Source of the DNA: a virus
Lineage: Duplodnaviria; Heunggongvirae; Uroviricota; Caudoviricetes
Direction: 5' to 3' (one strand)
DNA: 64,000 nt
Virus record (IMG/VR): IMGVR_UViG_2541047959_000009
This document shows positions 21,931-40,543 of the stretch, piece by piece (position 1 is the stretch's first letter; each line of letters begins with the position of its first letter). Under the pieces are notes generated by a model that was not told the DNA's origin, did no database searches, and saw only the letters and a program-made list of their open reading frames with translations. A program made the position numbers and the translations under genes.

Positions 21931-21975
21931 ATGTAGGAATTTCGGACGCGGGTTCAACTCCCGCCAGCTCCACCA
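21931..21975 (+). other. 45-nt copy of the ssrA (tmRNA) 3-prime end: prophage attachment core
   Basis: atgtaggaatttcggacgcgggttcaactcccgccagctccacca matches the remembered E. coli ssrA 3-prime end; upstream is unrelated AT-rich DNA. Confidence 0.7.
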
Positions 21976-22104
21976 ATCATGATTGGACGGTGTAAGGACA
22001 ACACCAACAAAAACAGGAAGTTAGAAGTCTCAGCAGGACACCGACCAGACGGTGAGGAGACATAAAAGGATACGCAAAGGAGCCGCGGCTCCGAAGTGAA
22101 ATGA

Positions 22105-22129
22105 AAGCCCGCTGATGCGGGCTTTTTTG
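22105..22129 (+). terminator. Rho-independent terminator
   Basis: agcccgc tgat gcgggct followed by tttttt. Confidence 0.6.
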
Positions 22130-23934: not shown

Positions 23935-24759
<825 letters not shown>

Positions 24760-24865
24760 TCAATTGACAACTTATAATCCCTACTAGTTAGCATTATGAT
24801 TTCCAGAGTGAGGAATATAAAAATCTCTGTTTCTGGCACATAACAGCCCTTAAGATCGTAGCTCG

Positions 24866-24915
24866 CCATCATGGGGTGTCGGGGGGCGGAGGTTCAAATC
24901 CTCTCGTGCCGACCA
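24866..24915 (+). other. 3-prime fragment of a tRNA-Pro(UGG)-like gene (att-like remnant), not an intact tRNA
   Basis: catggggtgtcggggggcggaggttcaaatcctctcgtgccgacca matches remembered proM 3-prime half; no complementary 5-prime acceptor strand upstream. Confidence 0.55.
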
Positions 24916-24928
24916 AAAATCCCTTAAG

Positions 24929-24955
24929 AACCAGCCTATTATGGCTGGTTTTTTT
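24929..24955 (+). terminator. Rho-independent terminator after the tRNA-Pro fragment
   Basis: aaccagcc tattat ggctggtt then ttttt. Confidence 0.6.
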
Positions 24956-25156
24956 ATGATTGTTTTTTATGCGGAGAAATACCGGGGAATAATTGGGGTA
25001 AAACACCTTTAGGCTATTCACTTAGCCTACCACCATCAAAATCTTTCCGAATGTATCCATCTCTTTTTTCTTATGCAGCTAAAACGAAGTCTTGATACTG
25101 TTTATTTACACAGATAAGAATAATACTGTCTACAAACGCAGTACAAAAGAAGTGTT

Positions 25157-25335
25157 ATGCGTATTGAGATCTCCATAGCCAAAGACAAAATGACCAAATG
25201 CCAAACGGCGCTGTGGACGCGTTAAAGGAAGAATTAACCCAACACATTGGCAAGCGTTATGACGATGTGGAGATGATCGTAAAAGCCACCAGCAACGATA
25301 GTTTTTCAGTTAGACATACTGCAGATAAAGATTGA
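25157..25335 (+). pseudogene. dinI-like gene disrupted by a frameshift
   Basis: [11 protein letters not shown]... stops after 22 codons; the DinI-like remainder ...[37 protein letters not shown] is in another frame. Confidence 0.45.
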
Positions 25336-25759
25336 GCTAAAACTTTCGTTCAGGAAACTCTGAATGATACCTGAGAGTCTACTGAAGAGTTGTTTGTTCA
25401 CTAGTTAGCACGTAGGAAATCATTCAATACTCGCACTATCGGAAGTTCACCAGCCAGTCGTAGCACGTCCTTGCAAACGACGTGCCTACGGTTTCAATCA
25501 CCTCTCACCATCAATTCTATCAATAATAATTAAACAGCGCCTAGACAAAATAAATAACAACAAGTCAACAACCTCGACAGGATGCCGATGGGATGATGAA
25601 GAGATAAGAAAGAATAACCAGTAAAGCCCTAAAACGTCAGCGTTCAGACGCGTTTTTTACTTAATCGGTAACAAATACGTTGTATCATAGCAAAATAAAA
25701 TGATTGTTCTAAATCAGATTAACTCCTCACTTTTGTACAATGTCGCTTACAGGTATACC

Positions 25760-27649
25760 ATGAAATCCGAGACGCTAACTGTCCAACAACTTTTTCAAGA
25801 CCGCCGACAATACTGTGTTCCATTCTATCAACGTGCCTATGTATGGACTCAGCAAGACCAGTGGTCAGCTCTACTGGAGGATATCCTAGAGAAAGTACAA
25901 TCCCGGCTCTCGGGTACAAAACCAACTCCCCATTTCCTTGGTGCGGTTGTACTGGAACCTCAATCAAAAAAAGGATTATTAGGTGTAGATTCCATACATA
26001 TTATTGATGGTCAGCAACGATTGACCACTCTTCAATATGTTCTGGCATCCATCCGATTAGCATTACGTGCTACGGATCTTTCCAGCTTAGAGGCTCTCAT
26101 TTCGCCTTGCCTGAAAAACTCAAACGAAGACACAATGCGAAATAAAGAAGTAGAACGCTTCAAACTGTGGCCAACTTTTCGGGATCAAACTCATTTTATT
26201 CAAAGTTTTAATGTTGAAAATATTGACGATCTCCGGGACGTATTCTCTGATAGTTTCACGCAGCATGGTACGTTGCGTAAGCATTTTAATCACCCGCCAT
26301 CACTAGAAGCATTATGTTTTTTTACTGAAGCCTTTATAAAATGGATTAAAATAGAAAACCACTCACCACAAGAAAATGCTGTAGCTCTAATTGAGGCTGT
26401 CTTAACAGATCTGAAACTGGTAAGCATATTTCTCGAAGCTGAAGATGATGCCCAAATAATTTTTGAAACATTAAATGGGCGAGGGGCGGAACTTCATGCT
26501 ACGGATCTTATTCGCAACTATATCTTTATGTGCGCTGAGCATGAAAATATTAATGCTATTGAATTATATGAAAATGAGTGGAAGAGCTTTGAAGATAAAT
26601 ACTGGTCGGAAAAACAACGCCGTGGACGTATTAATAAACCACGCATGGAGTGGCTAGTACATGCGACATTGCAATCAGAAAGGCAACGTGAAATTGATCT
26701 GTCTCGCCTTTACAATGAGTATCGTGATTATGTAAGTAAGGACTTGTCTTCACAACGAGCAGATCTGCAAGTAAAGCGCCTCAAACAATATGCATCACAA
26801 TATAAAGAATTGGTTGATGGTTTTGGCACAACCCCCATCTCACACTTTGGATATCGCATCGCAGACTATGATGTGACGACACTTTATCCGCTTGCTTTGT
26901 TCATTTCGATAGCTAACATCGCTGATGATGAGAAAGCAGCCATGTATAATGATCTTGTCTCCTACGTAGTACGAAGAGCCGTATGTGGCCTGACGCCAAA
27001 GAATTACAACAATGTATTTATGAATGTATTGCGGCACTTGGCTAAAACGGAAATTTCCAGTGTTGAGTTACGTAATATCCTCAATAACTTAAATGGCGAA
27101 GCCTCACGTTGGCCTGGTGACTCAGAATTTCTCAACGCTTGCATCAATGCTCCACTTTATCCTGGCAGGCTCGACGCACCGAAAATGCGCTCAATGTTAA
27201 CGGAACTTGAAAGAGAACTTTGTCGCCAAGTAAAGACAGAAAAGCCTGATGTTCCAAATCTTTCTAATCTCGATATCGATCATCTTATGCCTCAAAGTTG
27301 GTATTCCTGTTGGCCTCTCGAAAATGGTCGTATGGTGACAAATTCAGATGCTACGGTATTGAACCAAATTGTTCTGTCTGGAACCGATCTTACCCCTGAA
27401 CAGCTACTGGTAAGGAAACGGCAACAAGCGATATCTACTTTGGGAAATCTAACTTTGCTTAACCTTAGCGTAAACCGTTCTGTTCAGAATGCTGTATTTC
27501 TGAAAAAACGTGATGCTCTCATCGTCCACACCAATCTACGACTGAACATTCCACTTATAGTTAAGGATAAATGGGATGAGGATGAAATCCTGGAGCGGGG
27601 TAAAAAGTTGGGGGAAATTGCATTGAAAGTATGGCCAAAACACGATTAA
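25760..27649 (+). CDS. GmrSD-family type IV restriction endonuclease-like protein (DUF262 + DUF1524)
   Basis: N-terminal QRAYVW and IIDGQQRLTTL; C-terminal DIDHLMPQS...GNLTLLN His-Me finger; ORF opens at 25700 but AGGT RBS favours ATG 25760. Confidence 0.75.
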   Translation: MKSETLTVQQLFQDRRQYCVPFYQRAYVWTQQDQWSALLEDILEKVQSRLSGTKPTPHFLGAVVLEPQSKKGLLGVDSIHIIDGQQRLTTLQYVLASIRLALRATDLSSLEALISPCLKNSNEDTMRNKEVERFKLWPTFRDQTHFIQSFNVENIDDLRDVFSDSFTQHGTLRKHFNHPPSLEALCFFTEAFIKWIKIENHSPQENAVALIEAVLTDLKLVSIFLEAEDDAQIIFETLNGRGAELHATDLIRNYIFMCAEHENINAIELYENEWKSFEDKYWSEKQRRGRINKPRMEWLVHATLQSERQREIDLSRLYNEYRDYVSKDLSSQRADLQVKRLKQYASQYKELVDGFGTTPISHFGYRIADYDVTTLYPLALFISIANIADDEKAAMYNDLVSYVVRRAVCGLTPKNYNNVFMNVLRHLAKTEISSVELRNILNNLNGEASRWPGDSEFLNACINAPLYPGRLDAPKMRSMLTELERELCRQVKTEKPDVPNLSNLDIDHLMPQSWYSCWPLENGRMVTNSDATVLNQIVLSGTDLTPEQLLVRKRQQAISTLGNLTLLNLSVNRSVQNAVFLKKRDALIVHTNLRLNIPLIVKDKWDEDEILERGKKLGEIALKVWPKHD

Positions 27650-27899
27650 TGCAATTAATAAAATGATTATAGTGGCCTTACATTAGTAAGGCCGCTACTC
27701 ACTATTAAATACTTTAATTTGCATCAAGAACAGCAGTGTCAGCCCTAGGTCTCGGACTTTGTACCGCTTATCTTGTCTTCAAAAATCAGCTCGCATCCTG
27801 CACAGTTCAGCGCATTACGTTGTAGATCTGTGTTCTGGTCATTTGTTGACACACGTACATAGCCAATAAGCATGGTAGATCTCCCTGACAAAAGCAGGA

Positions 27900-28196
27900 A
27901 TGATGCCATTTGCTCGTTATTTCTGCATTTTCATAAACGTTGGTTTGGGAGAAGGCGCTGCATGGCCTGTGGGCGTCGCTGATAAACAGACCCCAGACAC
28001 ATCGCTCAGGACGGGTCTGAGATGCAACGGAACGGCTGTGATTGGTGAACCTTACCGGGAAATCATTCAGACTGATCCGGTAAGTATAAGGCGCGAATTG
28101 CCTATGAATGGAATGACTGACAGTGCTGATGGGCGCGGAGGTGATAATAGGCGTTCTGTGGTCTCAGCACCATTGCCAACTGTATTTACTATTTAG
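27900..28196 (+). pseudogene. 5-prime-truncated copy of the tail-fibre constant-region 3-prime end (left arm of mirrored cassette)
   Basis: ...GLGEGAAWPVGVADKQTPD...LRCNG...VVSAPLPTVFTI parallels the C-terminus of the fibre gene at 29612-30157; in-frame stop at 27876. Confidence 0.5.
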
Positions 28197-28200
28197 GTGC
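28176..28200. repeat. Left copy of 25-bp inverted repeat at the fibre junction
   Basis: ccaactgtatttactatttaggtgc; 24/25 identical to the reverse complement of 29608-29632. Confidence 0.6.
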
Positions 28201-28394
28201 TGGTAGCTATCCTCTTGGGATCTTCGAGAGGTTCAGGTGCTATATTCAGTAATATAGTAGGGTCAGGCGCAACCGGGGTTAGCATTACCGTCGCCGTCAG
28301 TAGGAATAATACCGTTGTGGGCACAGTGGCCGTACCACTGATTGCAACCTGTCCTTCCAATACCAGAGTCTCCGCTATAGTGATAGCACGGTAA
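28197..28394 (+). CDS. Short glycine-rich tail-fibre distal segment (Sv-prime-like), GTG start after in-frame TAG
   Basis: 65 codons in frame with upstream fragment; GSGAIFSNIVGSGATGV...RNNTVVGT homologous to the minus-strand counterpart. Confidence 0.4.
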   Translation: MLVAILLGSSRGSGAIFSNIVGSGATGVSITVAVSRNNTVVGTVAVPLIATCPSNTRVSAIVIAR

Positions 28395-28738
28395 TGATGA
28401 AAGCAGTATTCTATACAGGACGAAGTGCAACAAATGATCGGCAAGATATGGTTCAAGAATATGATGGTGAGAGAACGCTACCTGATGACACTTTAGAAAT
28501 TTACATTGACATAGGTGAGCGAATCCCTGGACAGTCCTCACAAGGTAAAGCAAGTGTAGCTGAGGCTGCAGAAGCGCCCGGTTGTATTGAGTATTCACAT
28601 CCATCGGAAGAGGTTCAGGAGCTGCCGGGTGAAATCGACAAAATATCTTTGACTTCAGAATTAAATCAAAACACAGCAACCCATGATTGGCCCGGAAATG
28701 CTACTACTGGTCGTCTAATAGGCCCGTACCATGCGTAA
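28394..28738 (+). CDS. Tail-fibre assembly/adhesin-like protein (U-prime-like)
   Basis: 114-aa ORF, TAATG overlap with previous ORF; C-terminal ...HDWPGNA; paralogous to 29088-29414. Confidence 0.5.
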   Translation: MMKAVFYTGRSATNDRQDMVQEYDGERTLPDDTLEIYIDIGERIPGQSSQGKASVAEAAEAPGCIEYSHPSEEVQELPGEIDKISLTSELNQNTATHDWPGNATTGRLIGPYHA

Positions 28739-29087
28739 GATGATTCGTGGCGGGAGTACCATAACGAGCTGGAGCTGGGCGACGCTTCATACGCGGCAGA
28801 TGCTCAGTGTCAGACACCTACGGATGTTGAGACCGGTTGCCACGGGGCGCTTTAGCTGAAATTGCAGCCCGCACCGAATCTAAGGAATGCAGCAAAAACC
28901 CAACCTGAGGCGTTGCTGGCTGAATTAGATTCGGTCCGGGCTACAATTACCACCAAATCGCACGATTTCAAGTCGTCTGAGCTGCCATCGGCGTCGGACG
29001 TTGTATTTCTGCCGCGTAGAATGTGTCGCCCTGTTCCAGTGCGGTCACGGTCTCCAACCTCGCACTATACTACTTCACTTCCTCGGT

Positions 29088-29414
29088 TTATAGGCCAATA
29101 ATAGCTGTTTTTTCGGGCCAATGACGCGGATTGGTGTTGGTATTGGCTTCTCCAGTTAAGGATATTTTGATGATTTCAGCCCTCAACTCCTGAACCTCTT
29201 CCCATGGGTTTGGGTACTTAGACCAACATGTCGCTCCACACGCGTCAGCTCTACCTGCTTCATCTTGACGGGGAAGTGCCGGGATTCCATCATAAATGTC
29301 TCTATATACACTTGTAACAGAAACAGATACCCTAGCTTCACCATCATATTTTTGAACCGAATTATCCCGTGACATAGTATTAATAACGGGACTAATTAAT
29401 ATTGAGTTATTCAT
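29088..29414 (-). CDS. Tail-fibre assembly/adhesin-like protein (U-like)
   Basis: Start MNNSILISP at 29414 with AGGA RBS; C-terminal ...PRHWPEKTA; paralogous to 28394-28738. Confidence 0.5.
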   Translation of the reverse strand: MNNSILISPVINTMSRDNSVQKYDGEARVSVSVTSVYRDIYDGIPALPRQDEAGRADACGATCWSKYPNPWEEVQELRAEIIKISLTGEANTNTNPRHWPEKTAIIGL

Positions 29415-29434
29415 TACGGTCCTATCATGAAATA

Positions 29435-29611
29435 TTAAACTCTGATATCGCATGGACAGGTATCGATCGGTGTTTCGTCGACTGTGAACGAAACCGTATT
29501 ATTCTTCCTGTCAGCGACAAAAGAATTAACCGCGGTCGCGTATGAACCTGCAATATCAGTAAATTCACCACCTGAGGCTCTCGTAGATACCGGGGGGATA
29601 ACTCGCTGCAC
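29435..29611 (-). CDS. Short tail-fibre distal segment (Sv-like), GTG start right after the TAG of the fibre gene
   Basis: 58 codons VQRVIPPVSTRASGGEFTDIAGS...KNNTVSF...TCPCDIRV, homologous to 28197-28394. Confidence 0.4.
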   Translation of the reverse strand: MQRVIPPVSTRASGGEFTDIAGSYATAVNSFVADRKNNTVSFTVDETPIDTCPCDIRV

Positions 29612-29632
29612 CTAAAAAGTAAATACAGTTGG
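29608..29632. repeat. Right copy of 25-bp inverted repeat at the fibre junction
   Basis: Reverse complement ccaactgtatttactttttaggtgc. Confidence 0.6.
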
Positions 29633-30157
29633 CTCTTGGGCTGAGACAACCTCAGGCTTTTTATAACCGGTGAGGCCATCAGCCTTGCCAGTAATACCCT
29701 TACCAGCCACTGGGGCGATTTTACTTGCCGGAACAACCTTTGTCATTTCCCGGTAATGTTCAGCAAACAAAAACGCTCCATTGCAACTAATCAAGGTTGA
29801 GGGAGGTATATCAGAAGGTTGGGTATCAGGGACGCCCACAGTTCGTGCAGAGCCTTCTCCCAAACCAAGGTTTTCGAGAGCCGTTTTCACCGTGCCGTCC
29901 GATTTGATATCGCTAAACGGATTCTTGCGGCTTAACAGCAGCGCACGAAGCGCGGTAAGCAGCTGGTCGTGCCGCGCCTTCTCCAGACTGGCACCGGATG
30001 CCTCCACCACGCTGCAGAGTTCTTCCTGCAACATGTCAAAGTAGTCATCATCCAGATCGGTGGCAGGCGTGCCTGTCTGGGGGTTACCACGGGTAAAACC
30101 GTTCTTACCCGCGCCGAACTTATCCTTCTGCGCGGTTTTCGTGTCTATACGATGCAT
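29612..30157 (-). CDS. Tail fibre protein, conserved N-terminal (constant) part
   Basis: 181-aa [32 protein letters not shown]..., the N-terminus I associate with Mu-type tail fibres; ends at TAG inside the repeat. Confidence 0.65.
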
Positions 30158-30160
30158 GGA

Positions 30161-30745
30161 TTACTCCGGATATTTAAAAATTACGTAGGTATGCGAAGGG
30201 CAGAGTTTGTTAAGCACACATTCGACGACGGTGTCGCCCCAGATACGCAGCGCGGAATCACAGGGATCGCCACATGTCATCCAGGTGCTGTTGGTGGCGG
30301 CTGGCATGTTGACCTGCCAGTAATACCGCCATTCCGGCGCATTCACCGCGTCAGTACAGGCCGATGAGCAGGTGAACGTGCTTTTGTCGTATCGCGTGAT
30401 GGTGGCGTCTGGTCTGCCCAGGGCAGCAAGCTGTGCAAGGTAAAAATCCTCATTGATGCCGCCCGCCAGGTTAACCTTCGCATCCAGTCGTTGCTGACGC
30501 TGGCGAAGGGTCTGTGTTCCTGCGGGAATACATTCATCCGGCAGGCCGCACAGACGCTCCCAGCGATTTATCAGTTCGGTGGTGGTGCGCGGATCCAGCT
30601 CCCGCATCAGGGCATCCGCACGCTGATGAACGCGGGTTAATGACTGTGCCGCACCGGCAATCGCCGGATCGCTGGCTGACCACGCCGGACCGGGCGGCAG
30701 CAGTGCCGACAACAGACGGATGTAATCATCGTTTGTCACGCCCAT
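30161..30745 (-). CDS. Mu gp48 / YmfQ-like tail protein (DUF2313)
   Basis: 194-aa ORF between baseplate J-like gene and tail fibre. Confidence 0.65.
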
Positions 30746-31794
30746 GAAATCGTCCCCAGAACCGCCAGTTCATTTTTTGCAATGGAGATATTTTCCGCCG
30801 GTGCAAGCAATTGATGGCTGTATTCCCCGTTCGCACCGGAAATCGCTTCACTGATACGCGACACCTTCAGTTCTCCCTGCGGATAACCATCACGCAGCAG
30901 GAACGAACGCAACTCCGCGGTGATGGCAGCCCGTATTTCCGGTGTATCCGGCGTCACACGGATATGAAAATCCACCGTATGCGCCACCGGCCTGAACACA
31001 TACAAATCAGAGCCTGCCACCGGGGCCAGTGGCCCGATATGTTGTCTTGCCGCCGTTTCCGTTGATTCTTCCGGAATGGGATTAATCAGGTCACTGCTGG
31101 CAATCATCACACCGACAGTCCCCGTTCCCATCCAGTGACGGTATGCCCATGCGCGGGTAATGCCGGGCAATTCTTTAGCCCAGACAACATAGTCCCCGTC
31201 AGCCCCGCCCTGAGGCGTCCAGTAATACCGCTCAATGACGCGGGCGCGCCACGTTTCCAGCTCTTCAGTATCAAATCCACCTGTCAGAGTGTCTGCCACG
31301 CCGGAAGACGGCAGACCATTAACCGGCGTGACCAGGATTAATGACGTACCGTCGTCAGCGTTACCGACCGCGCCTGCACTTGAGCAGGCGATCGGCACGC
31401 GCAGGACACCACCGGCGCTGGTTGCATCGGCAGTTGCCGTGTACTGAATCAGGTCATCGCGCTGAATAACACTCCCGGCGGTCACCTTCAGGCCATCGCT
31501 GACGCCTTCCCAGCGCATATACCCGCTGGCAGTCGTGGCCCCCTTGCGCGGACACCGTTTCATCGCAGCATGTCGCGCCAGCCAGGACTCATCGCACAGG
31601 TCAGGCAGCATGTTCATTGCCAGATAATCGATGTACCCGTAAACCGTATGCAGCGCCGCCGCATACACCTTTGCCCGCACGTCTTCATCCATGCGCCGGA
31701 GCGTGTCGCTGACGTCCAGCCTGGCGAATAAATCGTTACGGAGCATACTGATATTTTCTGCCAGCGTCGGGCGCTGAAATTCACTGTCCGCCAT
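30736..31794 (-). CDS. Baseplate J-like protein (Mu gp47-like)
   Basis: 352-aa ORF in Mu-like baseplate order. Confidence 0.8.
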
Positions 31795-32209
31795 GCGTTA
31801 TCGCACTCCACAGATCATCTAAAGAAATCATTACCGGTCCGTCACGACGCCAGAGAGTGATACTGTTACCCAGTTCATTAATCCCGGTGCGGAGGATATC
31901 CAGATCAATACGGGACACCACGCCGTCATCAATCATCCATTGCAGGCATTCGCGGATATACCCCCTTACCGTCTGCACCAGCTGATTGGTCAGTTTGCTG
32001 CGCTGAAGCAGCCACAGTCGGGAGCCGTAACGGTCATTCTGTACCGCAGGCCAGGTATCCCCCCACCATCCCATCGGGACGTCGGCGTTGTCATCAGGCT
32101 CCGCCCGCCGCCAGGTAAACAGGGAAATCACCACGGCGCGGGTCAGCGGATCCAGCGGTGCGCTGGCGCAGGTGCGTTTACCGTTCACCGTCAGCCACAG
32201 TTCCATCAT
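31781..32209 (-). CDS. Baseplate protein (Mu gp46 / gpW-like)
   Basis: 142-aa ORF; synteny. Confidence 0.7.
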   Translation of the reverse strand: MMELWLTVNGKRTCASAPLDPLTRAVVISLFTWRRAEPDDNADVPMGWWGDTWPAVQNDRYGSRLWLLQRSKLTNQLVQTVRGYIRECLQWMIDDGVVSRIDLDILRTGINELGNSITLWRRDGPVMISLDDLWSAITHGGQ

Positions 32210-32754
32210 GCCTCCATCGCTTTATCAGGTTTGTCGGTGTTACTGCCCTGACCGTTCTCTCTGTGACGATGCCCGTTATAGGCAAGCCGCATCGCTGACA
32301 TGGTGGTGCCGCTGGAGTCGCACAGGTCTTTCACCTGTCCTGTCACTTCCAGGTCCATTTCAAAACGTGCTTCAGGTGCATTGCGAAACGTGATCGTTTT
32401 ACCTGCACCGTCCACCACGATCCCCTCCCGGGTCAGCGTCACAGACTGCCCCTGATCGTCATAGACCGCCACCTCACCCGTCTGCAGCCCTTTCAGGCGG
32501 TAGCGCCGGTCCGACACCGTAACAACCACCGCATGAGAACGGTCACCATCCGGAAACAACACCACCGCTTCCGCACCGCTGTTTGCCCTTGCGGTAAAAC
32601 CGTAGGGTTCAAGATGTTCAACCCCGGCTTTGGGTTCACCGGCAATCAGGGACACATCCACGGTCTGACATTTCGTGGCGGCACTGATGCTTTTCACCAC
32701 TGCCCGCCCAATCAGGCCGAGGAGTTGTCGCTGCATGGCTTCAATCGTACTCAT
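32206..32754 (-). CDS. Baseplate assembly protein V-like (spike)
   Basis: 182-aa ORF; synteny. Confidence 0.7.
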   Translation of the reverse strand: MSTIEAMQRQLLGLIGRAVVKSISAATKCQTVDVSLIAGEPKAGVEHLEPYGFTARANSGAEAVVLFPDGDRSHAVVVTVSDRRYRLKGLQTGEVAVYDDQGQSVTLTREGIVVDGAGKTITFRNAPEARFEMDLEVTGQVKDLCDSSGTTMSAMRLAYNGHRHRENGQGSNTDKPDKAMEA

Positions 32755-33833
32755 CAGAACGGGTCCTCCTGTACTCTGGCTTTTTTCTTTTTCCGCGCGC
32801 CGGGGGCTTCGGGTTCAGGCAGATAAGCATCAGGTGGGCCGACACGGATTTCCGTCAGGGTGCCGTTCTGGTCCTGAGTAAACGTGACTTCCGAGACAAG
32901 CAGTTCGGTATTGTCGAAACCACAGACCGGATCGAAGACAATCACCCGCTGGTTGGGCTGCCACAGCGTACCGTTACCCTGTCGCCAGCCCTGCACCACA
33001 TAGGTGGTTTCATCCGTCCGCGCCGCCCGTTGTCGGGCTTCAAAGTCAGCACGCGCAATACAGCCTGCCCCCGTAGCCTGCCCTGTCTGCCTGATATACA
33101 TCGGACGGTAACGGGCAATAAATGCGTCCTCTGTGCGGGCCCGCAGCGCGCTGGTGGTGGCCTCACCGAAATCATCGTCGTTTCCAGCACGCTGCCCCGC
33201 CACCTGGTAAACAGAAAACCGCTCCCGGATACTCTTCTCCGTATCGCAGGAAAGGATGTTTTCCCCGAGTACCAGCGCAGTATGTGCCCGCGTTGAGCCA
33301 ATACCGCCAATCACCAGCCTGCCGTGTGGGTCGTCGTAAGCCAGTGCCTGCTGCTGACCGAGTATTTTGTTGATTACCTCAATCACCGTTTCACCGTGAT
33401 CGGGCTGGACGTCAGGAATAACACCCGACGGCGCACCGTTGTTCACCACCTCAATGCCGAAAGGCGCAGCAAGCGCCTGCGCAATCTGTACCAGCGATCG
33501 TCCGTTAAACTGTGTCGGTTCGGCTGCACAGTCAATCAGGTCAGCGGTCAGACTGCGTCCGGCAATACCGGTGCTGACCGAACGGGCATCGTAACGAACG
33601 GGCGTCGCCTCCACCCAGCCGGTGATCACCAGCTCATCACCAATCAGCACCTCCACTTTTGAACCGTTTTTAATGCGCGGCTGAAGCGTGGTGATACCCT
33701 CATCACCCGGCCACTGGCGGGTGATCTCCACACTGAAATCCCGCGCCAGCCGTTCAATACCGGCACCGATGCGCACCGATGTCCAGCCATTCCACTCCCG
33801 GCCATTTACCCGTAGCGTGACGTTATCGTTCAT
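32754..33833 (-). CDS. Baseplate hub protein (Mu P / gpD-like)
   Basis: 359-aa ORF after DNA circulation protein. Confidence 0.7.
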   Translation of the reverse strand: MNDNVTLRVNGREWNGWTSVRIGAGIERLARDFSVEITRQWPGDEGITTLQPRIKNGSKVEVLIGDELVITGWVEATPVRYDARSVSTGIAGRSLTADLIDCAAEPTQFNGRSLVQIAQALAAPFGIEVVNNGAPSGVIPDVQPDHGETVIEVINKILGQQQALAYDDPHGRLVIGGIGSTRAHTALVLGENILSCDTEKSIRERFSVYQVAGQRAGNDDDFGEATTSALRARTEDAFIARYRPMYIRQTGQATGAGCIARADFEARQRAARTDETTYVVQGWRQGNGTLWQPNQRVIVFDPVCGFDNTELLVSEVTFTQDQNGTLTEIRVGPPDAYLPEPEAPGARKKKKARVQEDPF

Positions 33834-35200
33834 TGCACTGGCACCTTCAGAGGGATCACCGGCACAAAGCCGGGATGCGTAATGGCATTACGCCGGATAA
33901 TGTCCGCGTCACGCGCCGCGTTATCAAACCAGGTCGCCGCCAGCACCAGCGCGGGTAAAACCTCATCCGGTGTGCGCTGAATGATCCGTGCAGACTGTTC
34001 AAGGCGCGTGTTGATATCCGCATTCAGATCTGCTTTCACCCGGCGCAGCGCCAGAAACAGCACATCACTGGTTGTACGGGACAACTCCTTATCAATTGCC
34101 GTATTCAGTGTGTCGCGAATGTCGGTCAGTTCTTCCCACGTTGGCAGGTCAACCGTGTTTTTCACCGCCGGTGCATTGTTCAGTGCCGGATGCGTGACAG
34201 AAGGCCAGCCGGTGCTCTGCGCGGGTGTTGTTGACTGCCCCACTGTGGCATTCTGCATCACCGCGGAAGTTGTGGGCGCAGGCAATCGTGTGACGGCATA
34301 CGCCGCTTCGCTGATTGCGGTCGTACGAAGGGTGCTGGCAACCACGTTACGCTGCTGCGTCGCCGTGGCGGTGGTTTTACTGTCCGTTTTCCAGACGCCG
34401 CGCGGTTGCAGATCGCTGCCGAGGCTGACACCGGAAAGCGTTTTGATCATGGTGACCAGGTCGCTGGCGTTACCATAAAGGCGTTTCCCGGTACGCCACA
34501 TTTTCTGCACCTGCTCAACGAAATTTTTGCCTGACGATGGCGGCGGCAGAAGTACCGAGATATCCCCCTGCAACAGCCTGGCGGCATCCGATACGGCAGA
34601 ATCCACCACTTTCATCGCATCAGAAACATACCCAAGCATTGTGCTGGCATTACCGACGACGTCGTTCTGCACAAAATCTGCCACGCCATCGATACTGAAA
34701 CCACTGAAGCTGTCACTGATGCAGTCATCCAGTGCAGAACAGGATGACATCAGCGTCTGCGCCGTCGCCGCACCTGAAGTGGGGTAAGAGAGTTCTCCCG
34801 CTTCGACAAACTTCAGGTCAAAGCGGACAATACGCCCTTCACTCTTCGATGTGCTGACCCGAACTTCCCCGTCAACACAGACTTTCAGCTCACCGTAAGT
34901 CGGATGGACAAGCGTGCCGGGACCGGGTTTATTCAGCGCGTCAATCAGGCGATCGCGCTGGTCAAAGCAGTCATCTCCCACCACATAAGCTGTGATGGAC
35001 GGGCGGAAAGTGATTTTCCCCAGGTCTTCGGTATAGGGTTTGTCGCGGTTCGGGTATTCGTGCGTTTCCACACGACGACCGGTTCCCGCACTTTCTTCTT
35101 CAACCTTAAACGGCACACCGCGAAATGACGCGTCCTGAAGTCTGTCTTTCCACGTCATATAAACTCCGTACATAAAAAATCCCACCGGAGTGGGACTCAT
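33830..35200 (-). CDS. Mu N-like DNA circulation protein
   Basis: 456-aa ORF downstream of tape measure. Confidence 0.7.
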   Translation of the reverse strand: MSPTPVGFFMYGVYMTWKDRLQDASFRGVPFKVEEESAGTGRRVETHEYPNRDKPYTEDLGKITFRPSITAYVVGDDCFDQRDRLIDALNKPGPGTLVHPTYGELKVCVDGEVRVSTSKSEGRIVRFDLKFVEAGELSYPTSGAATAQTLMSSCSALDDCISDSFSGFSIDGVADFVQNDVVGNASTMLGYVSDAMKVVDSAVSDAARLLQGDISVLLPPPSSGKNFVEQVQKMWRTGKRLYGNASDLVTMIKTLSGVSLGSDLQPRGVWKTDSKTTATATQQRNVVASTLRTTAISEAAYAVTRLPAPTTSAVMQNATVGQSTTPAQSTGWPSVTHPALNNAPAVKNTVDLPTWEELTDIRDTLNTAIDKELSRTTSDVLFLALRRVKADLNADINTRLEQSARIIQRTPDEVLPALVLAATWFDNAARDADIIRRNAITHPGFVPVIPLKVPVQ

Positions 35201-35218
35201 TAACAGATTAATTTTTCA

Positions 35219-37054
35219 TTACCTGCCAAAGCGCGTATAGCCAACATCATGGCTGACATCAAAACCGCTGGATCGCGTTTCCATAACCCGCATACCCGGA
35301 GGTGAATTCACAAAAGAGACCTTGATCTCACCATCAACTTTTGGCGCAGAAGCTTTGTTAATCATGAAGGGATTCGGGCCTGTGGCACCGGAGGCGTTGT
35401 TTGACTGAGCCGGATCCACCGCCTGATAAGGTGTGTATCCCCGTGCCGGTATTCCCGTCCCATAAGCATCATAAGCACCCGCGCCCCACTGCGCAGAGTT
35501 AATGGCATCGACCGTGTCACCGGAACTGTCGGTAAACCACTCAATAATTGGCTTCAGCTTGTCCCACATATCCTGAAACCACTTAACAACCGGTCCCCAG
35601 TTATTGATTACCATCCCCAGCGGCGACCAGGCAAAAACCTTCTTCAGAAGTTCCCGGCCAGCCTCAAAATAAGGACCAATGGTTTCCCAGAGCTTCTTGA
35701 AATAAGGTCCGACAACATCCCAGTTAGTGATAATTAATCCCGCAGCCAGGGCTATCGCCGTCGCAATCATGCCAATCGGCGTCATCGACATGATCCTGCT
35801 GACAATACTGATGGCACCGCCAACGCCCATCAATCCCAGTTTCAGAATCGCAAGACCGGCAGCAAGCCCGACGACGCCGCGAATAACCCGGGGATTTTCA
35901 TCCGCAAACTTCGTGAATTTCTCCCCCAACTCCCCCAGCCATTGCGTGATATTTTTAGCGTCACCAGAAAATGCGCCGCCAATAGCCGCAAGGCCGTTAG
36001 TTGCGGTCCCTGTCATTGCCTCCCACAGGTTGGACAGCGTACCAAGCTGTGCCTGAACACGTTTATTCAGACTGGCCTGTTTATTCATCTTCTGCTGGAT
36101 CTGGTCGTAGCCATCCTTTCCTTTATCGATTAGTGCATTGACCACCTGAAGGGTTTCGGCATCATCACCAAATATTGCCTTAAGTACACCAGTTCGCTTA
36201 ACGTCGGTCAGTTTTCGCAGCTTTGCCAGTTGCCTGAACATGTTATCAAGACCGCCAAAACTCCCTTTGCCGTCAGTAAAATCGAGCTGTACCCCGAGTT
36301 TCTGGCGGGCCATGACTTTATTGACGTCCCTGATTTTCTTAACGCTTAATCCGGACTGGATAACTTTTCGCAGGGCGTTACCTGCCGACTCCCCGTTCAT
36401 CCCCATCTGATCCATCATGACGCTGATGGGGGCAAGGCTCTGTGCAGCCTGAAGACCGTCCTTGTTCACCATCTTCAGAACAGAGCTGGTTTTAGTGAAG
36501 AAGGACAACATGTTGGTATCGTCAACGCCCAGATAAAACGCCTTCTGGATAGTGTCGAACAGCCCCATCATGTCTTCTGACGCCGTTCCGGTAGCATCCT
36601 GCATCTTTGCGGCAAACTCGGCAGCCGCTTCCGGTGTTTTTTTCAGTTGTACCGCAAGATAAGCTGTCGCTTTACCCACACCGCCAAGAATGTTTTCTGC
36701 CGGGATCCCCTGACGCACCAGCATCTGCATCATGTTCTGGAAATCAGCCGTTGTACCGGGTAGCTGGTTACCCAGACCAATAGCCAGTTTATTGATGTCC
36801 TGAAAGCGCTTTCCGACCTCACCGTTCGCATCCATCATGGCAACTTTCAGCCCGGTGGCGGCGTTTTCCTGATCGGCATAAGATTTCAGGGAAAGCGTCA
36901 GACCCGCAGCCAGTCCGCCACCAAGCGCCAGCCCACCCTGTGACGCTTCTTCCGCCTGGCGTTTAAATCCCCGGATTTTCTTTTGCATTTTCGACAGCGC
37001 GGGAGAAAGCCTGTCGACACCGGTGATCAACGCCTTAAGCTCAAATTCAGCCAT
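35219..37054 (-). CDS. Tail tape measure protein
   Basis: 611-aa Ala/Gly-rich helical protein with C-terminal TM-like stretch; follows chaperone. Confidence 0.8.
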   Translation of the reverse strand: MAEFELKALITGVDRLSPALSKMQKKIRGFKRQAEEASQGGLALGGGLAAGLTLSLKSYADQENAATGLKVAMMDANGEVGKRFQDINKLAIGLGNQLPGTTADFQNMMQMLVRQGIPAENILGGVGKATAYLAVQLKKTPEAAAEFAAKMQDATGTASEDMMGLFDTIQKAFYLGVDDTNMLSFFTKTSSVLKMVNKDGLQAAQSLAPISVMMDQMGMNGESAGNALRKVIQSGLSVKKIRDVNKVMARQKLGVQLDFTDGKGSFGGLDNMFRQLAKLRKLTDVKRTGVLKAIFGDDAETLQVVNALIDKGKDGYDQIQQKMNKQASLNKRVQAQLGTLSNLWEAMTGTATNGLAAIGGAFSGDAKNITQWLGELGEKFTKFADENPRVIRGVVGLAAGLAILKLGLMGVGGAISIVSRIMSMTPIGMIATAIALAAGLIITNWDVVGPYFKKLWETIGPYFEAGRELLKKVFAWSPLGMVINNWGPVVKWFQDMWDKLKPIIEWFTDSSGDTVDAINSAQWGAGAYDAYGTGIPARGYTPYQAVDPAQSNNASGATGPNPFMINKASAPKVDGEIKVSFVNSPPGMRVMETRSSGFDVSHDVGYTRFGR

Positions 37055-37195
37055 GTGTGCGTTTCTCCTGCTCTATCCTGTTTGCCTGACTGACCAGCAA
37101 GGGAATTTCACTGATCGGCATATTCAGCAATTCGAAGGGATTAATGCGCCAGTAGCTGGCGCAGTCAAAGAAGCGATCAGTGAGGTATTCAGCCG

Positions 37196-37465
37196 TCAGG
37201 CCTGGAGGAAAAAACCAGCCACAAGCCACGCCGCAGCATTCAGGTCTGCCGGAGACATCTGGTCGACAGAGTTTTGCGGCACTTTCGCCAGCCGCACAAT
37301 GTATTTCGATACCACATGCGCCAGAAGTCTGACGGACTCATCCTGATTCATCTGGTAGGGATACCCCAGCTCGCGGACATCTTTCCCGGTGGGCTCATCA
37401 AACTCCAGTACGGAGAGTGTCTCGCCATGAGCGGTAATCGGTTTCTTTAACTCAAGCTCTTTCAT
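37196..37465 (-). CDS. Tail assembly chaperone (G-like) with -1 frameshift extension to 37047
   Basis: 89-aa ORF ending ...GFFLQA; slippery T_TTT_TTC at 37208-37214; -1 frame continues to 37047. Confidence 0.6.
   Translation of the reverse strand: MKELELKKPITAHGETLSVLEFDEPTGKDVRELGYPYQMNQDESVRLLAHVVSKYIVRLAKVPQNSVDQMSPADLNAAAWLVAGFFLQA
37208..37214 (-). promoter_or_regulatory. Candidate programmed -1 ribosomal frameshift heptamer T_TTT_TTC
   Basis: Read from reverse complement ggttttttc; overlapping ORF in -1 frame. Confidence 0.5.
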
Positions 37466-37821
37466 TACTGGTAATCCCCTTCTTCACCGTGGAACTCAAG
37501 ATCAACCGTCCCTTCTTCGGCATTATGGTTCGCTTCGCCGTGCAGCCAGGCAGACGACAGTACATAGACCTGACCGTTCGCCAGCTCGGCAGTGATGGTC
37601 ATCTCATCAGACGAGGTGATTTTGCTCACCGGAAAATTCTTCGGCACCTTGAAGGTCCCTTTAACATAAGGCGCACGGTGAGTTTCCTTGCGGTCCACTG
37701 AACCGTCCAGGCCGATGATGTCATCATTGACCGTCCTGTTCATGGGCACCTCAATGCCGCCGGTCAGCGATAGCTGCTGACCGTCAATTTTGAAATAACA
37801 GGTTCCCCCGATACGGGCCAT
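37465..37821 (-). CDS. Tail tube protein
   Basis: 118-aa ORF directly after sheath. Confidence 0.8.
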   Translation of the reverse strand: MARIGGTCYFKIDGQQLSLTGGIEVPMNRTVNDDIIGLDGSVDRKETHRAPYVKGTFKVPKNFPVSKITSSDEMTITAELANGQVYVLSSAWLHGEANHNAEEGTVDLEFHGEEGDYQ

Positions 37822-39317
37822 TATGCGGACTCCTCTGAATACTGAAGACGGAACTGGTTAACCACGGCAAAGACACGCAACTGGTTAACATAGTCAGGCG
37901 GGAACAGCGTGTTCAGGCGGTTCGGATCGCTGGCATCACGCTCCACAACCAGGTACTGCTTAAAAAGTTCGTAGTTTTCCACGATCCCCGCACGCTCAAG
38001 CTGACGGTAGGTTGCCAGCAGTTCCCCTTTGATCACCGCCGGGGTGACAATCGCCTGACCGGGACCAAAGCGGGTACCGTCGCTGGCAAGCTTGTGACGC
38101 CCGTACTTACTGGTAATGACGGATTTCAGTTTGCGCAGTACATACGCACTGGTATGCAGCGTCTCGCTGTCGAGGTAGCTGTTATCCGCAACCCCGTAAG
38201 CGTTTTTCCTGTACGTGGTGACATCACGCTGAATGCGCAGTACCCCGCTTTCGACATACGCCGTTGCCACGCCATGAGACAGCAGGGTCTTTTGTTCGGT
38301 CATCGTGAACCGTTTCCCCTTCGGCGCAGGCAGCATACCCACCAGCTCACCGGTCTGCGTGGGACGTGCCGGATCGTTGCGGATAAACACCGCTGCGCGG
38401 GCGGTACGGCTTGCCGCCAGCTCGTCGGCAGGCGTCTGGGTGTCTTTTTCGTACCCCGCCAGGGTAATGTGCTGCTGGTTAAACTGGTCACCTGCGGTCA
38501 CCAGTTCTGACAGCGTGCCGGTCTTTGCCGTATACACATGACCATACAGCTGACGCGCATAGCTCCAGCGACCGCTGGTATCGTTCATCTCGGTCACCAG
38601 CGTGTTAACGGAGGCCGTGTCGTTGAACGGCAGGCCGATATAATCAAACGGCTCATCCGCCATTGCAGCCACAGCGCCGGTGAGAACCGGAGCACCCGTT
38701 CCGGCGGTACCCGTCACCACGGCAATCTGTACGCCCGCTGGCAGCACTTCGCCCCCACCAAAGCCGTAGTAATTGAGGCTGACAGGAATTTCATTCCCGC
38801 AAAGCCCCTTATGACGCGCGGTCAGTGTGACCACGCCTGCCGAAGATGAAGCCGTAAACGGCAGGGTCGGAACGGCATTGATGGCATCCTGGATACTGCT
38901 GGCAATCATCGTAACGTTATCGCCGTTAGTCACCGGTACCTGCACGCGGGTACGTCCCACATACACATTCACCGTGCCGGTTTCGGTTGCCGCCCCGGTC
39001 ACCGTCAGCGTAACCGTTGCCGCCGCGCCTGTGGATTCAGGAACGGCAATCACATACAGCTCGCCAAACGGGTCAGTCTGGCGATAAGCCTCGACCATAC
39101 GCGCCAGCTGACTTCCCGCACCACAAATCTGGCGTGCATAGTCTGCCGACGGCATCAGTACCAGACTGTTGGCAACAATCTCTGCACCGTTATTGGCATG
39201 ACCAATCAGCAGCGATGCTCCGCTGTCCTGTGCAGTATTCGCAGCCTGGTTATCCATTTCCGCATAAAACAGCGGAACCAGCGTATTCGACGGAATGGTG
39301 TTAAAGCTTATCGTCAT
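37821..39317 (-). CDS. Contractile tail sheath protein
   Basis: 498-aa ORF; Mu-like order. Confidence 0.85.
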   Translation of the reverse strand: MTISFNTIPSNTLVPLFYAEMDNQAANTAQDSGASLLIGHANNGAEIVANSLVLMPSADYARQICGAGSQLARMVEAYRQTDPFGELYVIAVPESTGAAATVTLTVTGAATETGTVNVYVGRTRVQVPVTNGDNVTMIASSIQDAINAVPTLPFTASSSAGVVTLTARHKGLCGNEIPVSLNYYGFGGGEVLPAGVQIAVVTGTAGTGAPVLTGAVAAMADEPFDYIGLPFNDTASVNTLVTEMNDTSGRWSYARQLYGHVYTAKTGTLSELVTAGDQFNQQHITLAGYEKDTQTPADELAASRTARAAVFIRNDPARPTQTGELVGMLPAPKGKRFTMTEQKTLLSHGVATAYVESGVLRIQRDVTTYRKNAYGVADNSYLDSETLHTSAYVLRKLKSVITSKYGRHKLASDGTRFGPGQAIVTPAVIKGELLATYRQLERAGIVENYELFKQYLVVERDASDPNRLNTLFPPDYVNQLRVFAVVNQFRLQYSEESA

Positions 39318-39471
39318 CGGTGTTCACCTTTTTATTCACGCGCCGGATATCACCCGCTGCTTCACGGCGCAGCCAGTAGTTGTTCTCATCAACATTTCGC
39401 CCTTCGGCGGGCAAAAGGTCGCCGCGGGCAGGGTCAGGCACTGACCGCCCTTTAACAGGTTTCACAAACAT
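39301..39471 (-). CDS. Small 56-aa protein upstream of sheath (below ORF-track cutoff)
   Basis: ATG at 39471 with GAGGA RBS; stop overlaps sheath start. Confidence 0.35.
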   Translation of the reverse strand: MFVKPVKGRSVPDPARGDLLPAEGRNVDENNYWLRREAAGDIRRVNKKVNTDDDKL

Positions 39472-39479
39472 GATGATCC

Positions 39480-40040: not shown

Positions 40041-40543
40041 CTGCGTCGTCGCTCCGGCTTCAGTGATTTACGTAATTCCCGCGCCAGAAAATAGCGTGTC
40101 CAGCTGCGGTTCTTTTCAAGCGTTTCCACCATAAAGTTATTACGTGGAGCCAGTCGCCAGCCGCTGCCACCGGATGCACCACGATGATGGCTGCGACGAC
40201 GCTTTGCCCCTCGCCTCACGCCATAGAACAAAAAAGCCGGATAAAAATCACCGGTGATACGGCGGTTTCCCTCTCCATTACGCTGGTTAGGGGCTATACG
40301 TGCCATAAAACCAGGGCGATGTTTACTGGCTCTGGGTACCATGTAACCAATCGAACGAGCCAGGCGTCCGGTCTGATAACCGGGGTTTTCACCCGGTGCC
40401 GACCGCGCACGGCGCATCACCAGCCGACGGGCATCACGCATATGACGCTGACCAATCGTGACAAACGCCCGCCGGACACGGGCGCGGTTAAAGCGCATCT
40501 CCGCGGGCTGCTGAAAATCAACGTGCAAAAAGGAAGTCGTCAT
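40037..40543 (-). CDS. Virion morphogenesis / tail component protein
   Basis: 168-aa basic ORF; synteny. Confidence 0.45.
   Translation of the reverse strand: MTTSFLHVDFQQPAEMRFNRARVRRAFVTIGQRHMRDARRLVMRRARSAPGENPGYQTGRLARSIGYMVPRASKHRPGFMARIAPNQRNGEGNRRITGDFYPAFLFYGVRRGAKRRRSHHRGASGGSGWRLAPRNNFMVETLEKNRSWTRYFLARELRKSLKPERRRR

What the first reader, a model, noticed from the sequence alone, without database searches (positions are those of the whole stretch)
24866..24955. Orphan tRNA-Pro 3-prime half with its terminator inside the island
About 50 nt match the 3-prime half of a proM-type tRNA-Pro, including the T-arm and CCA, followed by a clean terminator, but there is no 5-prime acceptor strand. 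It is typical of an att remnant of a tRNA-targeting element, although its orientation does not fit either prophage as currently bounded.
Basis: partly seen in the sequence, partly recalled or inferred. Interest (0 to 1): 0.4.

Follow-up and report, generated by a model that had tools for sequence, protein, structure and literature searches.

The report
Leftover proL phage attachment site
The orphan tRNA-Pro half is the leftover attachment-site core and built-in terminator of a phage lineage that once integrated into the proL tRNA gene; this prophage has since swapped in an ssrA-targeting integrase, so it is an ordinary fossil of phage mosaicism.

Summary
Window 24869-24915 matches the last 47 nt of tRNA-Pro(GGG) at 46/47, from anticodon loop to CCA. 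A strong terminator hairpin follows at 24926-24953. No tRNA is detectable and there is no true 5' acceptor strand.

Two details are wrong. The gene is proL (anticodon GGG), not proM. The terminator is a phage-borne copy, not the chromosomal one.

The window is E. coli S88. Its own proL is intact and empty, 513 kb away. In strain EC_J_9 a sibling prophage, 96-99% identical over window 24858-60693, sits at the native proL. There the same block and terminator form the 3' half of an intact tRNA-Pro (attL). In free phages Flotzy and Eeyore the block lies just downstream of a proL-type integrase (attP).

The window's prophage carries an unrelated integrase, 91% identical to that of ssrA-inserting phage PhiNP. 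It is bracketed by ~190-nt ssrA-type direct repeats.

So the fragment is an orphaned attP core plus right arm, left behind when the integration module was exchanged. It now lies between defence cargo genes (PD-T4-3, GmrSD).

A 28-nt spacer (24841-24868) remains unexplained.

Ordinary; low interest.

The parts
24869..24915 (+). 3' part of tRNA-Pro(GGG)/proL, tRNA positions 31-77: anticodon loop, variable loop, T-arm, acceptor 3' strand and CCA. One mismatch at 24886.
   Evidence: 46/47 identical to S88 native proL; alignments; unique in the window, 0 expected by chance; intact counterparts called tRNA-Pro(ggg).
24916..24923 (+). Eight trailer bases (AAAATCCC) shared by the native proL locus, EC_J_9 attL and attR. 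This is the 3' end of the 55-57-bp att identity block.
24924..24962 (+). Phage-borne intrinsic terminator: stem 24926-24953 followed by a T-run. It is the start of the attP right arm.
   Evidence: Terminator scan; fold -19.4 kcal/mol, z -6.5; 44/45 identical to the EC_J_9 attL arm but 33/46 to the S88 native proL terminator; homologous hairpins in Flotzy, Eeyore, Phi06_2987 and Gifsy-2.
24841..24868 (+). 28-nt spacer of unresolved origin between the GIY-YIG cassette and the Pro block. Its last ~12 nt weakly resemble the tRNA D-stem/anticodon-stem region.
   Evidence: Anchored-match test p~0.004; local alignment not significant; found only in the 113 E. coli genomes with this same junction and in same-arrangement viral and metagenome contigs; absent from GTDB species representatives.
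24709..24840 (-). Upstream (promoter) region of the GIY-YIG cassette, including CTGGCACA (24833-24840), which only mimics a tRNA acceptor 5' strand.
   Evidence: 89% homology with the cassette in an unrelated SE11 lambdoid prophage runs through 24840 and then stops.
23935..24708 (-). GIY-YIG (LEM-3-like) defence gene, PD-T4-3 type. Cargo associated with the ssrA-proximal end of the prophage.
   Evidence: PADLOC PD-T4-3 E 8.5e-136, full length; Pfam LEM-3_GIY-YIG; S88 annotation.
25157..25374 (+). DinI-like pseudogene, the first gene of the proL-type phage arm.
   Evidence: S88 and EC_J_9 annotations; DinI genes occupy the same position next to attP in Flotzy and Eeyore.
25760..27649 (+). GmrSD-type type IV restriction enzyme (DUF262/DUF1524). 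Cargo on the proL-type arm, also present in EC_J_9.
   Evidence: Pfam GmrSD_N and GmrSD_C; PADLOC mREase_IV 1415 bits.
24858..60693 (.). Phage backbone (myovirus tail, HK97-type head, lambdoid early genes) collinear with the EC_J_9 prophage that is integrated at the native proL.
   Evidence: BLAST blocks at 96-99% identity from window 24858 to 60693, with no homology beyond either end.
61882..63054 (+). Current tyrosine integrase of the prophage. It is PhiNP-like and inferred to be ssrA-specific, and it is unrelated to proL-type integrases.
   Evidence: No significant similarity to the EC_J_9 or Flotzy integrases; 91% aa identity to the phiNP integrase; PhiNP inserts into ssrA (PMC3072379); homologues at the same ssrA-glaH locus in ST131.
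21931..22128 (+). ssrA 3'-end copy plus ~150 nt of downstream sequence and a terminator. It is the attR of the upstream P2-like prophage and the left att repeat of the prophage that holds the Pro relic.
   Evidence: 46-nt exact ssrA match at 21931-21976; ~190-nt direct repeat with S88 2875470-2875651, just beyond the window's right end.

Best explanation
The fragment is an orphaned phage attachment site: the core and right (P') arm of the attP of a proL-integrating temperate phage lineage. In that lineage the phage carries a copy of the last ~47 nt of tRNA-Pro(GGG), 8 trailer bases and its own terminator, placed just downstream of a proL-specific tyrosine integrase. On integration, this copy replaces the 3' half of the host proL and keeps the tRNA gene intact and terminated. 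The prophage in this window descends from such a phage. The segment that carried the proL-type integrase and the left arm of attP has been replaced by a module comprising a PhiNP-like ssrA-type integrase, variable cargo, an ssrA-type attP and more cargo, including the PD-T4-3 GIY-YIG gene. The phage now sits at ssrA, between ssrA-type direct repeats and behind a P2-like prophage. The Pro block is stranded about 2.9 kb inside its left end. It has no 5' half, no cognate integrase and no partner repeat, so it is not a tRNA gene and not an active attP. At most its hairpin still terminates rightward transcription.

Shown: the sequence identities, the sibling prophage at proL, attP in free phages, the unrelated integrase, and the ssrA repeats.
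Inferred: the direction and mechanism of the exchange, the ssrA specificity of this integrase (by 91% identity to PhiNP and by location), and the present-day inertness of the block.
For: (a) The window is E. coli S88 2810406-2874405.

(b) In EC_J_9, the gene order is yejM - intact tRNA-Pro(ggg) - identical terminator - DinI-like pseudogene - GmrSD - invertase fragment - tail fibres ... proL-type int - 239-aa gene - proL 3' fragment with native terminator - yejO.

(c) EC_J_9 is collinear with window 24858-60693 at 96-99% identity. Homology starts at the Pro block and ends at the yfdR stop codon.

(d) The terminator arm is 44/45 identical to the EC_J_9 attL arm but 33/46 to S88's native proL terminator.

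(e) Free phages Flotzy, Eeyore and Phi06_2987 have int -> ~136 nt -> the same Pro block and a homologous terminator -> UmuD/DinI/tail fibres. ARAGORN calls no tRNA there.

(f) The window integrase has no significant similarity to the EC_J_9 or Flotzy integrases. It is 91% identical to the phiNP integrase.

(g) PhiNP inserts into ssrA in both C. rodentium and E. coli (PMC3072379). The phiNP record ends in an ssrA 3'-end copy after int plus a cargo gene.

(h) A ~190-nt ssrA-type direct repeat brackets the 43-kb unit. An ST131 prophage with the same integrase type sits at the same ssrA-glaH locus, with different cargo and no Pro block.

(i) S88's native proL is intact and unoccupied.

(j) There is only one Pro-block copy in the window and no partner repeat near the integrase.
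Against: The 28 nt between the GIY-YIG cassette and the block (24841-24868) match neither the EC_J_9 nor the Flotzy left arm, nor anything outside this same junction. The left recombination joint is therefore not reconstructed.

Homology with the sibling starts within ~11 nt of the left edge of the att core. That position would also be expected if the joint had been made by integrase-mediated recombination at a secondary site.

The ssrA specificity of this particular integrase, and excision of the 43-kb unit, have not been demonstrated.

No transcript data bear on whether the block or its terminator is used.
Confidence: 0.85

Rival explanations
1. Secondary-site integration. A proL-type phage used its own integrase to recombine its attP with a proL-like pseudo-site lying next to the GIY-YIG cassette in an element already resident at ssrA. 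The block would then be a hybrid attL. The phage's integrase end was later lost or replaced by the resident element's ssrA-type integrase.
For: Homology with the proL-integrated sibling begins right at the left edge of the att core. The ~12 nt just left of the core weakly resemble the tRNA, as a pseudo-attB might (8/11 matches, anchored p~0.004).
Against: It needs at least two events, and nothing shows the second. No partner att copy exists near the integrase or anywhere else in the 45-kb locus. Genuine attP left arms (Flotzy, EC_J_9 attR) show a similar imperfect extension of tRNA similarity, so that signal does not discriminate. No empty version of the proposed pseudo-site was found in any collection.
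Confidence: 0.08
2. Host-derived att remnant. The block is the displaced original 3' end of a chromosomal tRNA-Pro gene with its native terminator, left at the distal end of an element that inserted into that gene.
For: Partial 3' tRNA copies with a terminator are the classic signature of the distal junction of tRNA-integrated islands (established knowledge). The block is 54/55 identical to the host sequence.
Against: The locus is ssrA-glaH, not yejM-yejO. S88's proL is intact and empty 513 kb away. The terminator and everything to its right are the phage type, not the chromosomal type. In a distal junction the element would lie to the left of the block and chromosome to the right, which is the opposite of what is seen.
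Confidence: 0.03
3. A functional RNA. The region encodes an unusual or degenerate tRNA-Pro, using CTGGCACA as the acceptor 5' strand, or a small RNA made of a tRNA 3' half plus terminator.
For: GGCAC (24835-24839) can pair with GTGCC in the acceptor 3' strand. A promoter-like site (10/12 match) lies on the + strand at 24698-24725, and a strong terminator follows.
Against: ARAGORN and Rfam detect nothing. The 83-nt candidate folds no better than shuffles (z -0.78). CTGGCACA is part of the GIY-YIG cassette, as shown by SE11. The -10 element of the promoter-like site is not conserved in SE11. Similarity of the upstream segment to the proL 5' half is not significant by local alignment.
Confidence: 0.03

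Closest known systems
attP of tRNA-integrating temperate phages with tyrosine integrases. The nearest examples here are Escherichia phages Flotzy and Eeyore, and the EC_J_9 prophage at proL. The general class was described by Williams, NAR 2002
   Same: The same 47-nt proL 3' block starting in the anticodon loop. The same kind of phage-borne terminator that restores the gene's 3' flank. The same neighbours on the right (DinI-like gene, tail fibres). The right arm is 98-99% identical to the EC_J_9 attL arm.
   Different: Here there is no cognate integrase and no recognisable left arm next to the block, and no partner repeat. It is therefore a relic, not a working attP, attL or attR.
The proL-block relic in Salmonella phage Gifsy-2 (NC_010393.1, 44256-44334).
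   Same: A proL T-arm/acceptor/CCA copy plus a homologous terminator, lying beyond the tail-fibre and effector-cargo end of a prophage. It even shares the G at the variable-loop position that is mismatched in the window.
   Different: The Gifsy-2 copy is shorter, starting in the variable loop, and more diverged. That Gifsy-2 does not integrate at proL is from my own knowledge and was not tested here.
Integration-module exchange among lambdoid and mosaic phages. The example here is PhiNP-type ssrA integrases with variable cargo between int and attP.
   Same: The window's integrase is 91% identical to PhiNP's. The layout is int -> cargo -> ssrA-type att, and the chromosomal site is the same as in the ST131 prophage.
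   Different: The structural and early backbone comes from the proL-type lineage. The ST131 ssrA prophage has a lambda-like tail module and no Pro block.

Membership tests
Functional tRNA gene (tRNA-Pro) | Cloverleaf recognised by tRNA detectors or covariance models | tested here: not met
   ARAGORN found 0 genes in the window. Rfam gave no hit at gathering score and no tRNA hit at E<=10 in 24700-25100.
Functional tRNA gene (tRNA-Pro) | 5' acceptor strand, D-arm and anticodon-stem 5' strand present | tested here: not met
   The acceptor-like CTGGCACA belongs to the GIY-YIG cassette. Upstream similarity to the proL 5' half is not significant. The 83-nt fold has z = -0.78.
Phage att site derived from a tRNA 3' end (tyrosine-integrase class) | Identity block with the 3' part of the target tRNA gene, beginning in or near the anticodon loop and running through CCA | tested here: met
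   46/47 over tRNA positions 31-77, and 54/55 including the trailer.
Phage att site derived from a tRNA 3' end (tyrosine-integrase class) | The same phage-borne sequence forms the 3' half of the intact tRNA at attL when a related phage is integrated in the target gene | tested here: met
   In EC_J_9, yejM is followed by tRNA-Pro(ggg), then the identical terminator and arm.
Phage att site derived from a tRNA 3' end (tyrosine-integrase class) | In free phage genomes the block lies next to the integrase gene (attP) | tested here: met
   In Flotzy and Eeyore, int is followed ~136 nt later by the block.
Active attP / attL / attR of the resident prophage | Cognate integrase encoded by the same element | tested here: not met
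   The window integrase is unrelated to proL-type integrases. It is PhiNP-like.
Active attP / attL / attR of the resident prophage | A matching direct repeat at the other end of the element | tested here: not met
   There is a single copy in the window. No Pro-type repeat exists in the 45-kb locus, whereas ssrA-type repeats do bracket it.
Intrinsic (Rho-independent) terminator | GC-containing hairpin followed directly by a T-run, more stable than chance | tested here: met
   11-bp stem plus T7, -19.4 kcal/mol, z = -6.5. Actual termination in vivo was not tested.
ssrA-integrating PhiNP-like prophage (the element that now holds the relic) | PhiNP-type integrase, plus ssrA 3'-end direct repeats at both ends, at the ssrA locus | tested here: met
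   91% aa identity; repeats; the locus lies between ssrA and glaH. Site-specific activity cannot be tested with these tools.

The most novel reading that the evidence does not exclude
The stranded core is not inert. It keeps a complete 55-bp proL att core with only one mismatch. It could therefore serve as a second landing site (pseudo-attB) for proL-type phages such as Flotzy or the EC_J_9 phage, allowing them to integrate inside another prophage's defence-cargo region. Alternatively, its retained terminator could insulate the DinI/GmrSD cargo. Either would explain why such relics persist in unrelated phages, Gifsy-2 included.
Probability: 0.08. Interest if true: 0.35.

Novelty: new member of a known kind. 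Interest (0 to 1): 0.12.

Why it matters
It matters mainly for annotation. The fragment is neither a damaged host tRNA nor an island boundary, so it should not be used to delimit the prophages here; the true boundaries are the ssrA-type repeats. It gives a clean, datable marker of an integrase-module exchange: a proL-type phage backbone now carrying a PhiNP-like ssrA module, found in the ST95-type B2 lineage (113 of 5,426 complete E. coli genomes). It also shows that tools which predict islands from tRNA fragments can be misled by phage-borne att cores. It opens no new mechanism or open question.

Tried and rejected
(1) Full-length degenerate tRNA-Pro pseudogene. The first pairwise alignment suggested a decayed 5' half with an acceptor-like TGGCACA. 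I rejected this for three reasons: CTGGCACA is part of the GIY-YIG cassette that SE11 carries in a different prophage; local alignment to the proL 5' half is not significant; and the 83-nt fold is no better than shuffles. Only a weak anchored similarity over ~12 nt remains.

(2) Origin of the 28-nt spacer. I searched E. coli complete genomes, GTDB species representatives, IMG/VR and metagenomes. Every hit has the same junction, so there is no independent context and the origin is unresolved.

(3) ST131 GIY-YIG allele as a second comparator for the cassette boundary. It is too diverged upstream to be informative.

(4) Permissive Rfam scan of 24700-25100. It returned only sub-threshold noise driven by the hairpin and T-arm.

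(5) ssrA-type repeat inside the window near the integrase. None was found. The right repeat lies about 1 kb beyond the window end.

(6) Literature on proL as an E. coli phage site. Nothing specific was found in the papers checked. One search call failed because a term was too short. One fetch of an annotated region failed on the size limit. One script failed on a file-name assumption.

(7) Strains where the GIY-YIG match stops at ~24801. These turned out to be an IS66-family insertion, not an alternative junction.

Full report
**What is in the sequence.** Window 24869-24915 (+) reads TCATGGGGTGTCGGGGGGCGGAGGTTCAAATCCTCTCGTGCCGACCA. An 11-bp hairpin at 24926-24953 follows, with a T-run after it. 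The 28-nt T-arm/acceptor/CCA string occurs once in the window and never in 100 shuffles. The hairpin folds at -19.4 kcal/mol with z = -6.5, and the terminator scan picks it up. ARAGORN finds no tRNA or tmRNA in the 64 kb. Rfam finds nothing at gathering thresholds and only hairpin-driven noise at E<=10.

**Which tRNA.** Megablast of the fragment against 5,426 complete E. coli genomes hits one tRNA-Pro gene per genome. In K-12 this gene lies between yejM and yejO, and ARAGORN calls it tRNA-Pro with anticodon GGG. The fragment itself contains that anticodon. By established nomenclature this is proL, not proM (UGG). Against the window's own genome the tRNA part matches at 46/47, with one T->G mismatch at 24886. 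The block extends 8 nt past CCA, giving 54/55.

**Where the window comes from and how the locus is built.** The window is E. coli S88 NC_011742.1 2810406-2874405 at 100% identity. The S88 annotation gives this order:
- smpB, then an intact ssrA, just left of the window;
- a P2-like prophage ending with int and a 407-aa gene;
- an exact 46-nt ssrA 3'-end copy at window 21931-21976;
- a DpnII/MboI-like REase-domain gene, a 97-aa gene and a GIY-YIG gene;
- the Pro block;
- a DinI-like pseudogene, a DUF262 gene and an invertase fragment;
- a complete myovirus-tailed prophage with lambdoid early genes, whose integrase is at 61882-63054;
- three small minus-strand genes, then glaH.

A ~190-nt direct repeat, 93-95% identical, comprises the ssrA 3' end plus its downstream flank and terminator. 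Its copies lie at window 21941-22128 and at S88 2875470-2875651, about 1 kb beyond the window's right end. It brackets a 43-kb unit, and the Pro block lies about 2.9 kb inside the left end of that unit. UTI89 has the same unit directly after ssrA, without the P2-like prophage. S88's own proL locus (yejM, tRNA-Pro, yejO remnant, narP) is intact and unoccupied at 2322084-2322160.

**The decisive comparison.** The sequence to the right of the block (24916-25700) recurs in about 150 genomes. In some of them it sits at the native proL neighbourhood. In strain EC_J_9 the order is yejM, an intact tRNA-Pro(ggg), then the same terminator, DinI-like pseudogene, DUF262 gene, invertase fragment and tail fibres. 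At the far end of that prophage lie a tyrosine integrase, a 239-aa gene, and a proL 3' fragment followed by the native terminator and yejO. This is a textbook attL/attR pair with a ~57-bp repeat.

BLAST of the whole EC_J_9 prophage against the window gives collinear blocks at 96-99% identity from window 24858 to 60693, and nothing beyond either end. The left edge of the shared backbone is therefore the Pro block itself. The right edge is the end of yfdR, just before the integration genes. The window's terminator arm is 44/45 identical to the EC_J_9 attL arm but only 33/46 to S88's native proL terminator. So the terminator is the phage's copy, not 'its' chromosomal one.

**Free phages confirm the attP reading.** In Escherichia phages Flotzy and Eeyore, and in Phi06_2987, the same Pro block with a homologous terminator lies about 136 nt downstream of an integrase gene. 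UmuD-like, DinI and tail-fibre genes follow. ARAGORN finds no tRNA there. This is the usual design of phages that integrate into tRNA genes: the phage carries the 3' part of the gene, here with a terminator too, so that integration regenerates an intact, terminated tRNA.

**Why the block is orphaned here.** The window's integrase shows no significant similarity to the EC_J_9 or Flotzy integrases. It is 91% identical in protein to the integrase of Citrobacter phage phiNP. Petty et al. 2011 report that PhiNP inserts into the ssrA tmRNA gene in both C. rodentium and an E. coli lysogen (PMC3072379). The phiNP record has int followed by a cargo ATPase, and it ends in an ssrA 3'-end copy.

Close DNA homologues of the window's integrase occur in 412 E. 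coli genomes. In ST131 strain 4433 one sits at the same ssrA-glaH locus with the same chromosomal attR flank. That prophage has a different cargo gene after int, a lambda-like tail module, an R-M system plus another GIY-YIG allele next to ssrA, and no DinI gene or Pro block.

So the integrase, the variable cargo, the ssrA att and the GIY-YIG-type cargo travel together as one module. The Pro block, DinI, GmrSD and tail genes belong to the other lineage. The simplest history is that a proL-type phage exchanged its integrase and attP left arm for the ssrA module. The attP core and right arm were left stranded. The direction of the exchange is inferred: a proL core has no reason to exist in a phage that never used proL.

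**The false 5' half.** A pairwise alignment with proL suggested a decayed 5' half with an acceptor-like TGGCACA. The GIY-YIG cassette also occurs, at 89% identity, inside an unrelated lambdoid prophage of strain SE11. The homology there runs through CTGGCACA (24833-24840) and stops. That motif is therefore cassette DNA, not tRNA.

The remaining 28 nt (24841-24868) are unexplained. Local alignment to the proL 5' half is not significant. The 83-nt candidate folds no better than shuffles. Only the last ~12 nt show a weak anchored resemblance (8/11 matches; 0.4% of window 30-mers do as well). Genuine attP left arms (Flotzy, EC_J_9 attR) show similar imperfect extensions, so the spacer may be a stub of a left arm.

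The spacer occurs only in the 113 E. coli genomes with this same junction. Elsewhere it appears only in same-arrangement IMG/VR and metagenome contigs. It is absent from 185,579 species-representative genomes. I could not reconstruct the left joint. This leaves room for a secondary-site integration scenario, which I rate at about 8%.

**Function now.** The block has no 5' half, no cognate integrase, no left arm and no partner repeat. It is neither a tRNA gene nor an active att site of this prophage. Its divergence from the EC_J_9 arm (about 2%) equals that of the backbone, so nothing suggests selective retention. Its hairpin probably still terminates rightward transcription. A promoter-like site at 24698-24725 is not conserved in SE11 and is probably chance. 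Use of the block as a pseudo-attB by proL-type phages is possible but unsupported. The genomes where the left and right flanks are not contiguous are explained, where I checked, by an IS66-family insertion or by deletions.

**Comparison with what is known, and verdict.** Partial tRNA copies as att sites, phage-borne restoration of the gene's 3' end, and exchange of integration modules between mosaic phages are all established (Williams 2002, cited from my own knowledge; ssrA use by PhiNP from PMC3072379). Gifsy-2 carries a shorter relic of the same proL arm. I found no paper describing this particular relic. It is a new instance of a well-known kind. It is useful for correct prophage delimitation and as a marker of the module swap, but it is not surprising. 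Confidence in the orphaned-attP explanation is about 0.85, and interest is 0.12.

Noticed in passing
window 21931-21976 and 20591-21814: An exact 46-nt copy of the ssrA 3' end marks the attR of the upstream P2-like prophage. Between that prophage's integrase and this attR sits a 407-aa gene with no Pfam or PADLOC match, at a position where such phages often carry defence cargo.
   Followed up: partly
window 21941-22128 and S88 2875470-2875651 (L006 43471-43652, outside the window): The ssrA-type att repeat of the second prophage is unusually long (~190 nt). It includes a phage-borne copy of the ssrA downstream flank and terminator. The right (chromosomal) copy in S88 has a 6-nt deletion in the ssrA end and two mismatches, which might impair excision.
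   Followed up: partly
window 22555-23343, 23935-24708, 25760-27649: The relic lies in a cluster of defence-type cargo. There is a DpnII/MboI-like REase-domain protein with no adjacent methylase, a full-length PD-T4-3 GIY-YIG protein (E 8.5e-136), and a GmrSD-type type IV restriction enzyme (1415 bits).
   Followed up: partly
L009 1507-1585 (Gifsy-2 NC_010393.1 44256-44334): Salmonella phage Gifsy-2 carries a shorter relic of the same proL T-arm/acceptor/CCA block with a homologous terminator, beyond sseI and the tail-fibre genes. It shares the G variant seen at window 24886.
   Followed up: partly
window ~24801 (L012 6902-9960): In strains 729_021014_1_4 and GPEC505-623 an IS66-family element (ISCro1-like, tnpA/tnpB/tnpC) is inserted between the GIY-YIG gene and the Pro block.
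   Followed up: yes
window 55333-55407 (L006 33739-33813): A 15-bp period tandem repeat (reported as 4 overlapping 30-nt copies spaced 15 nt apart), CAGATTTTGACGGGG-like, lies inside the helix-turn-helix replication-initiator-like gene. It looks like lambdoid origin iterons.
   Followed up: no
window 13444-15884 (-) and 561-2261 (+): In the P2-like prophage the replication endonuclease (gpA-like) gene is annotated as frameshifted, so that prophage may be defective. An AIPR-family (abortive-infection-type) gene is inserted among its late genes.
   Followed up: no
window 63046-64000 and beyond (S88 2873451-2875321): Three minus-strand genes (199 aa with no family hit, a STAS-like 108 aa, and 303 aa) occupy the variable cargo slot between the ssrA-type integrase and attR. 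The same slot holds a 259-aa gene in ST131 and an AAA ATPase in phiNP.
   Followed up: partly
window 23900-24299: The listed UTI89-like genomes ('spread' rows, none at 100%) differ from the window by one base in this stretch: 99.9% over 23900-24872, against 100% over 24300-25700. This is a single SNP in or near the GIY-YIG gene.
   Followed up: no
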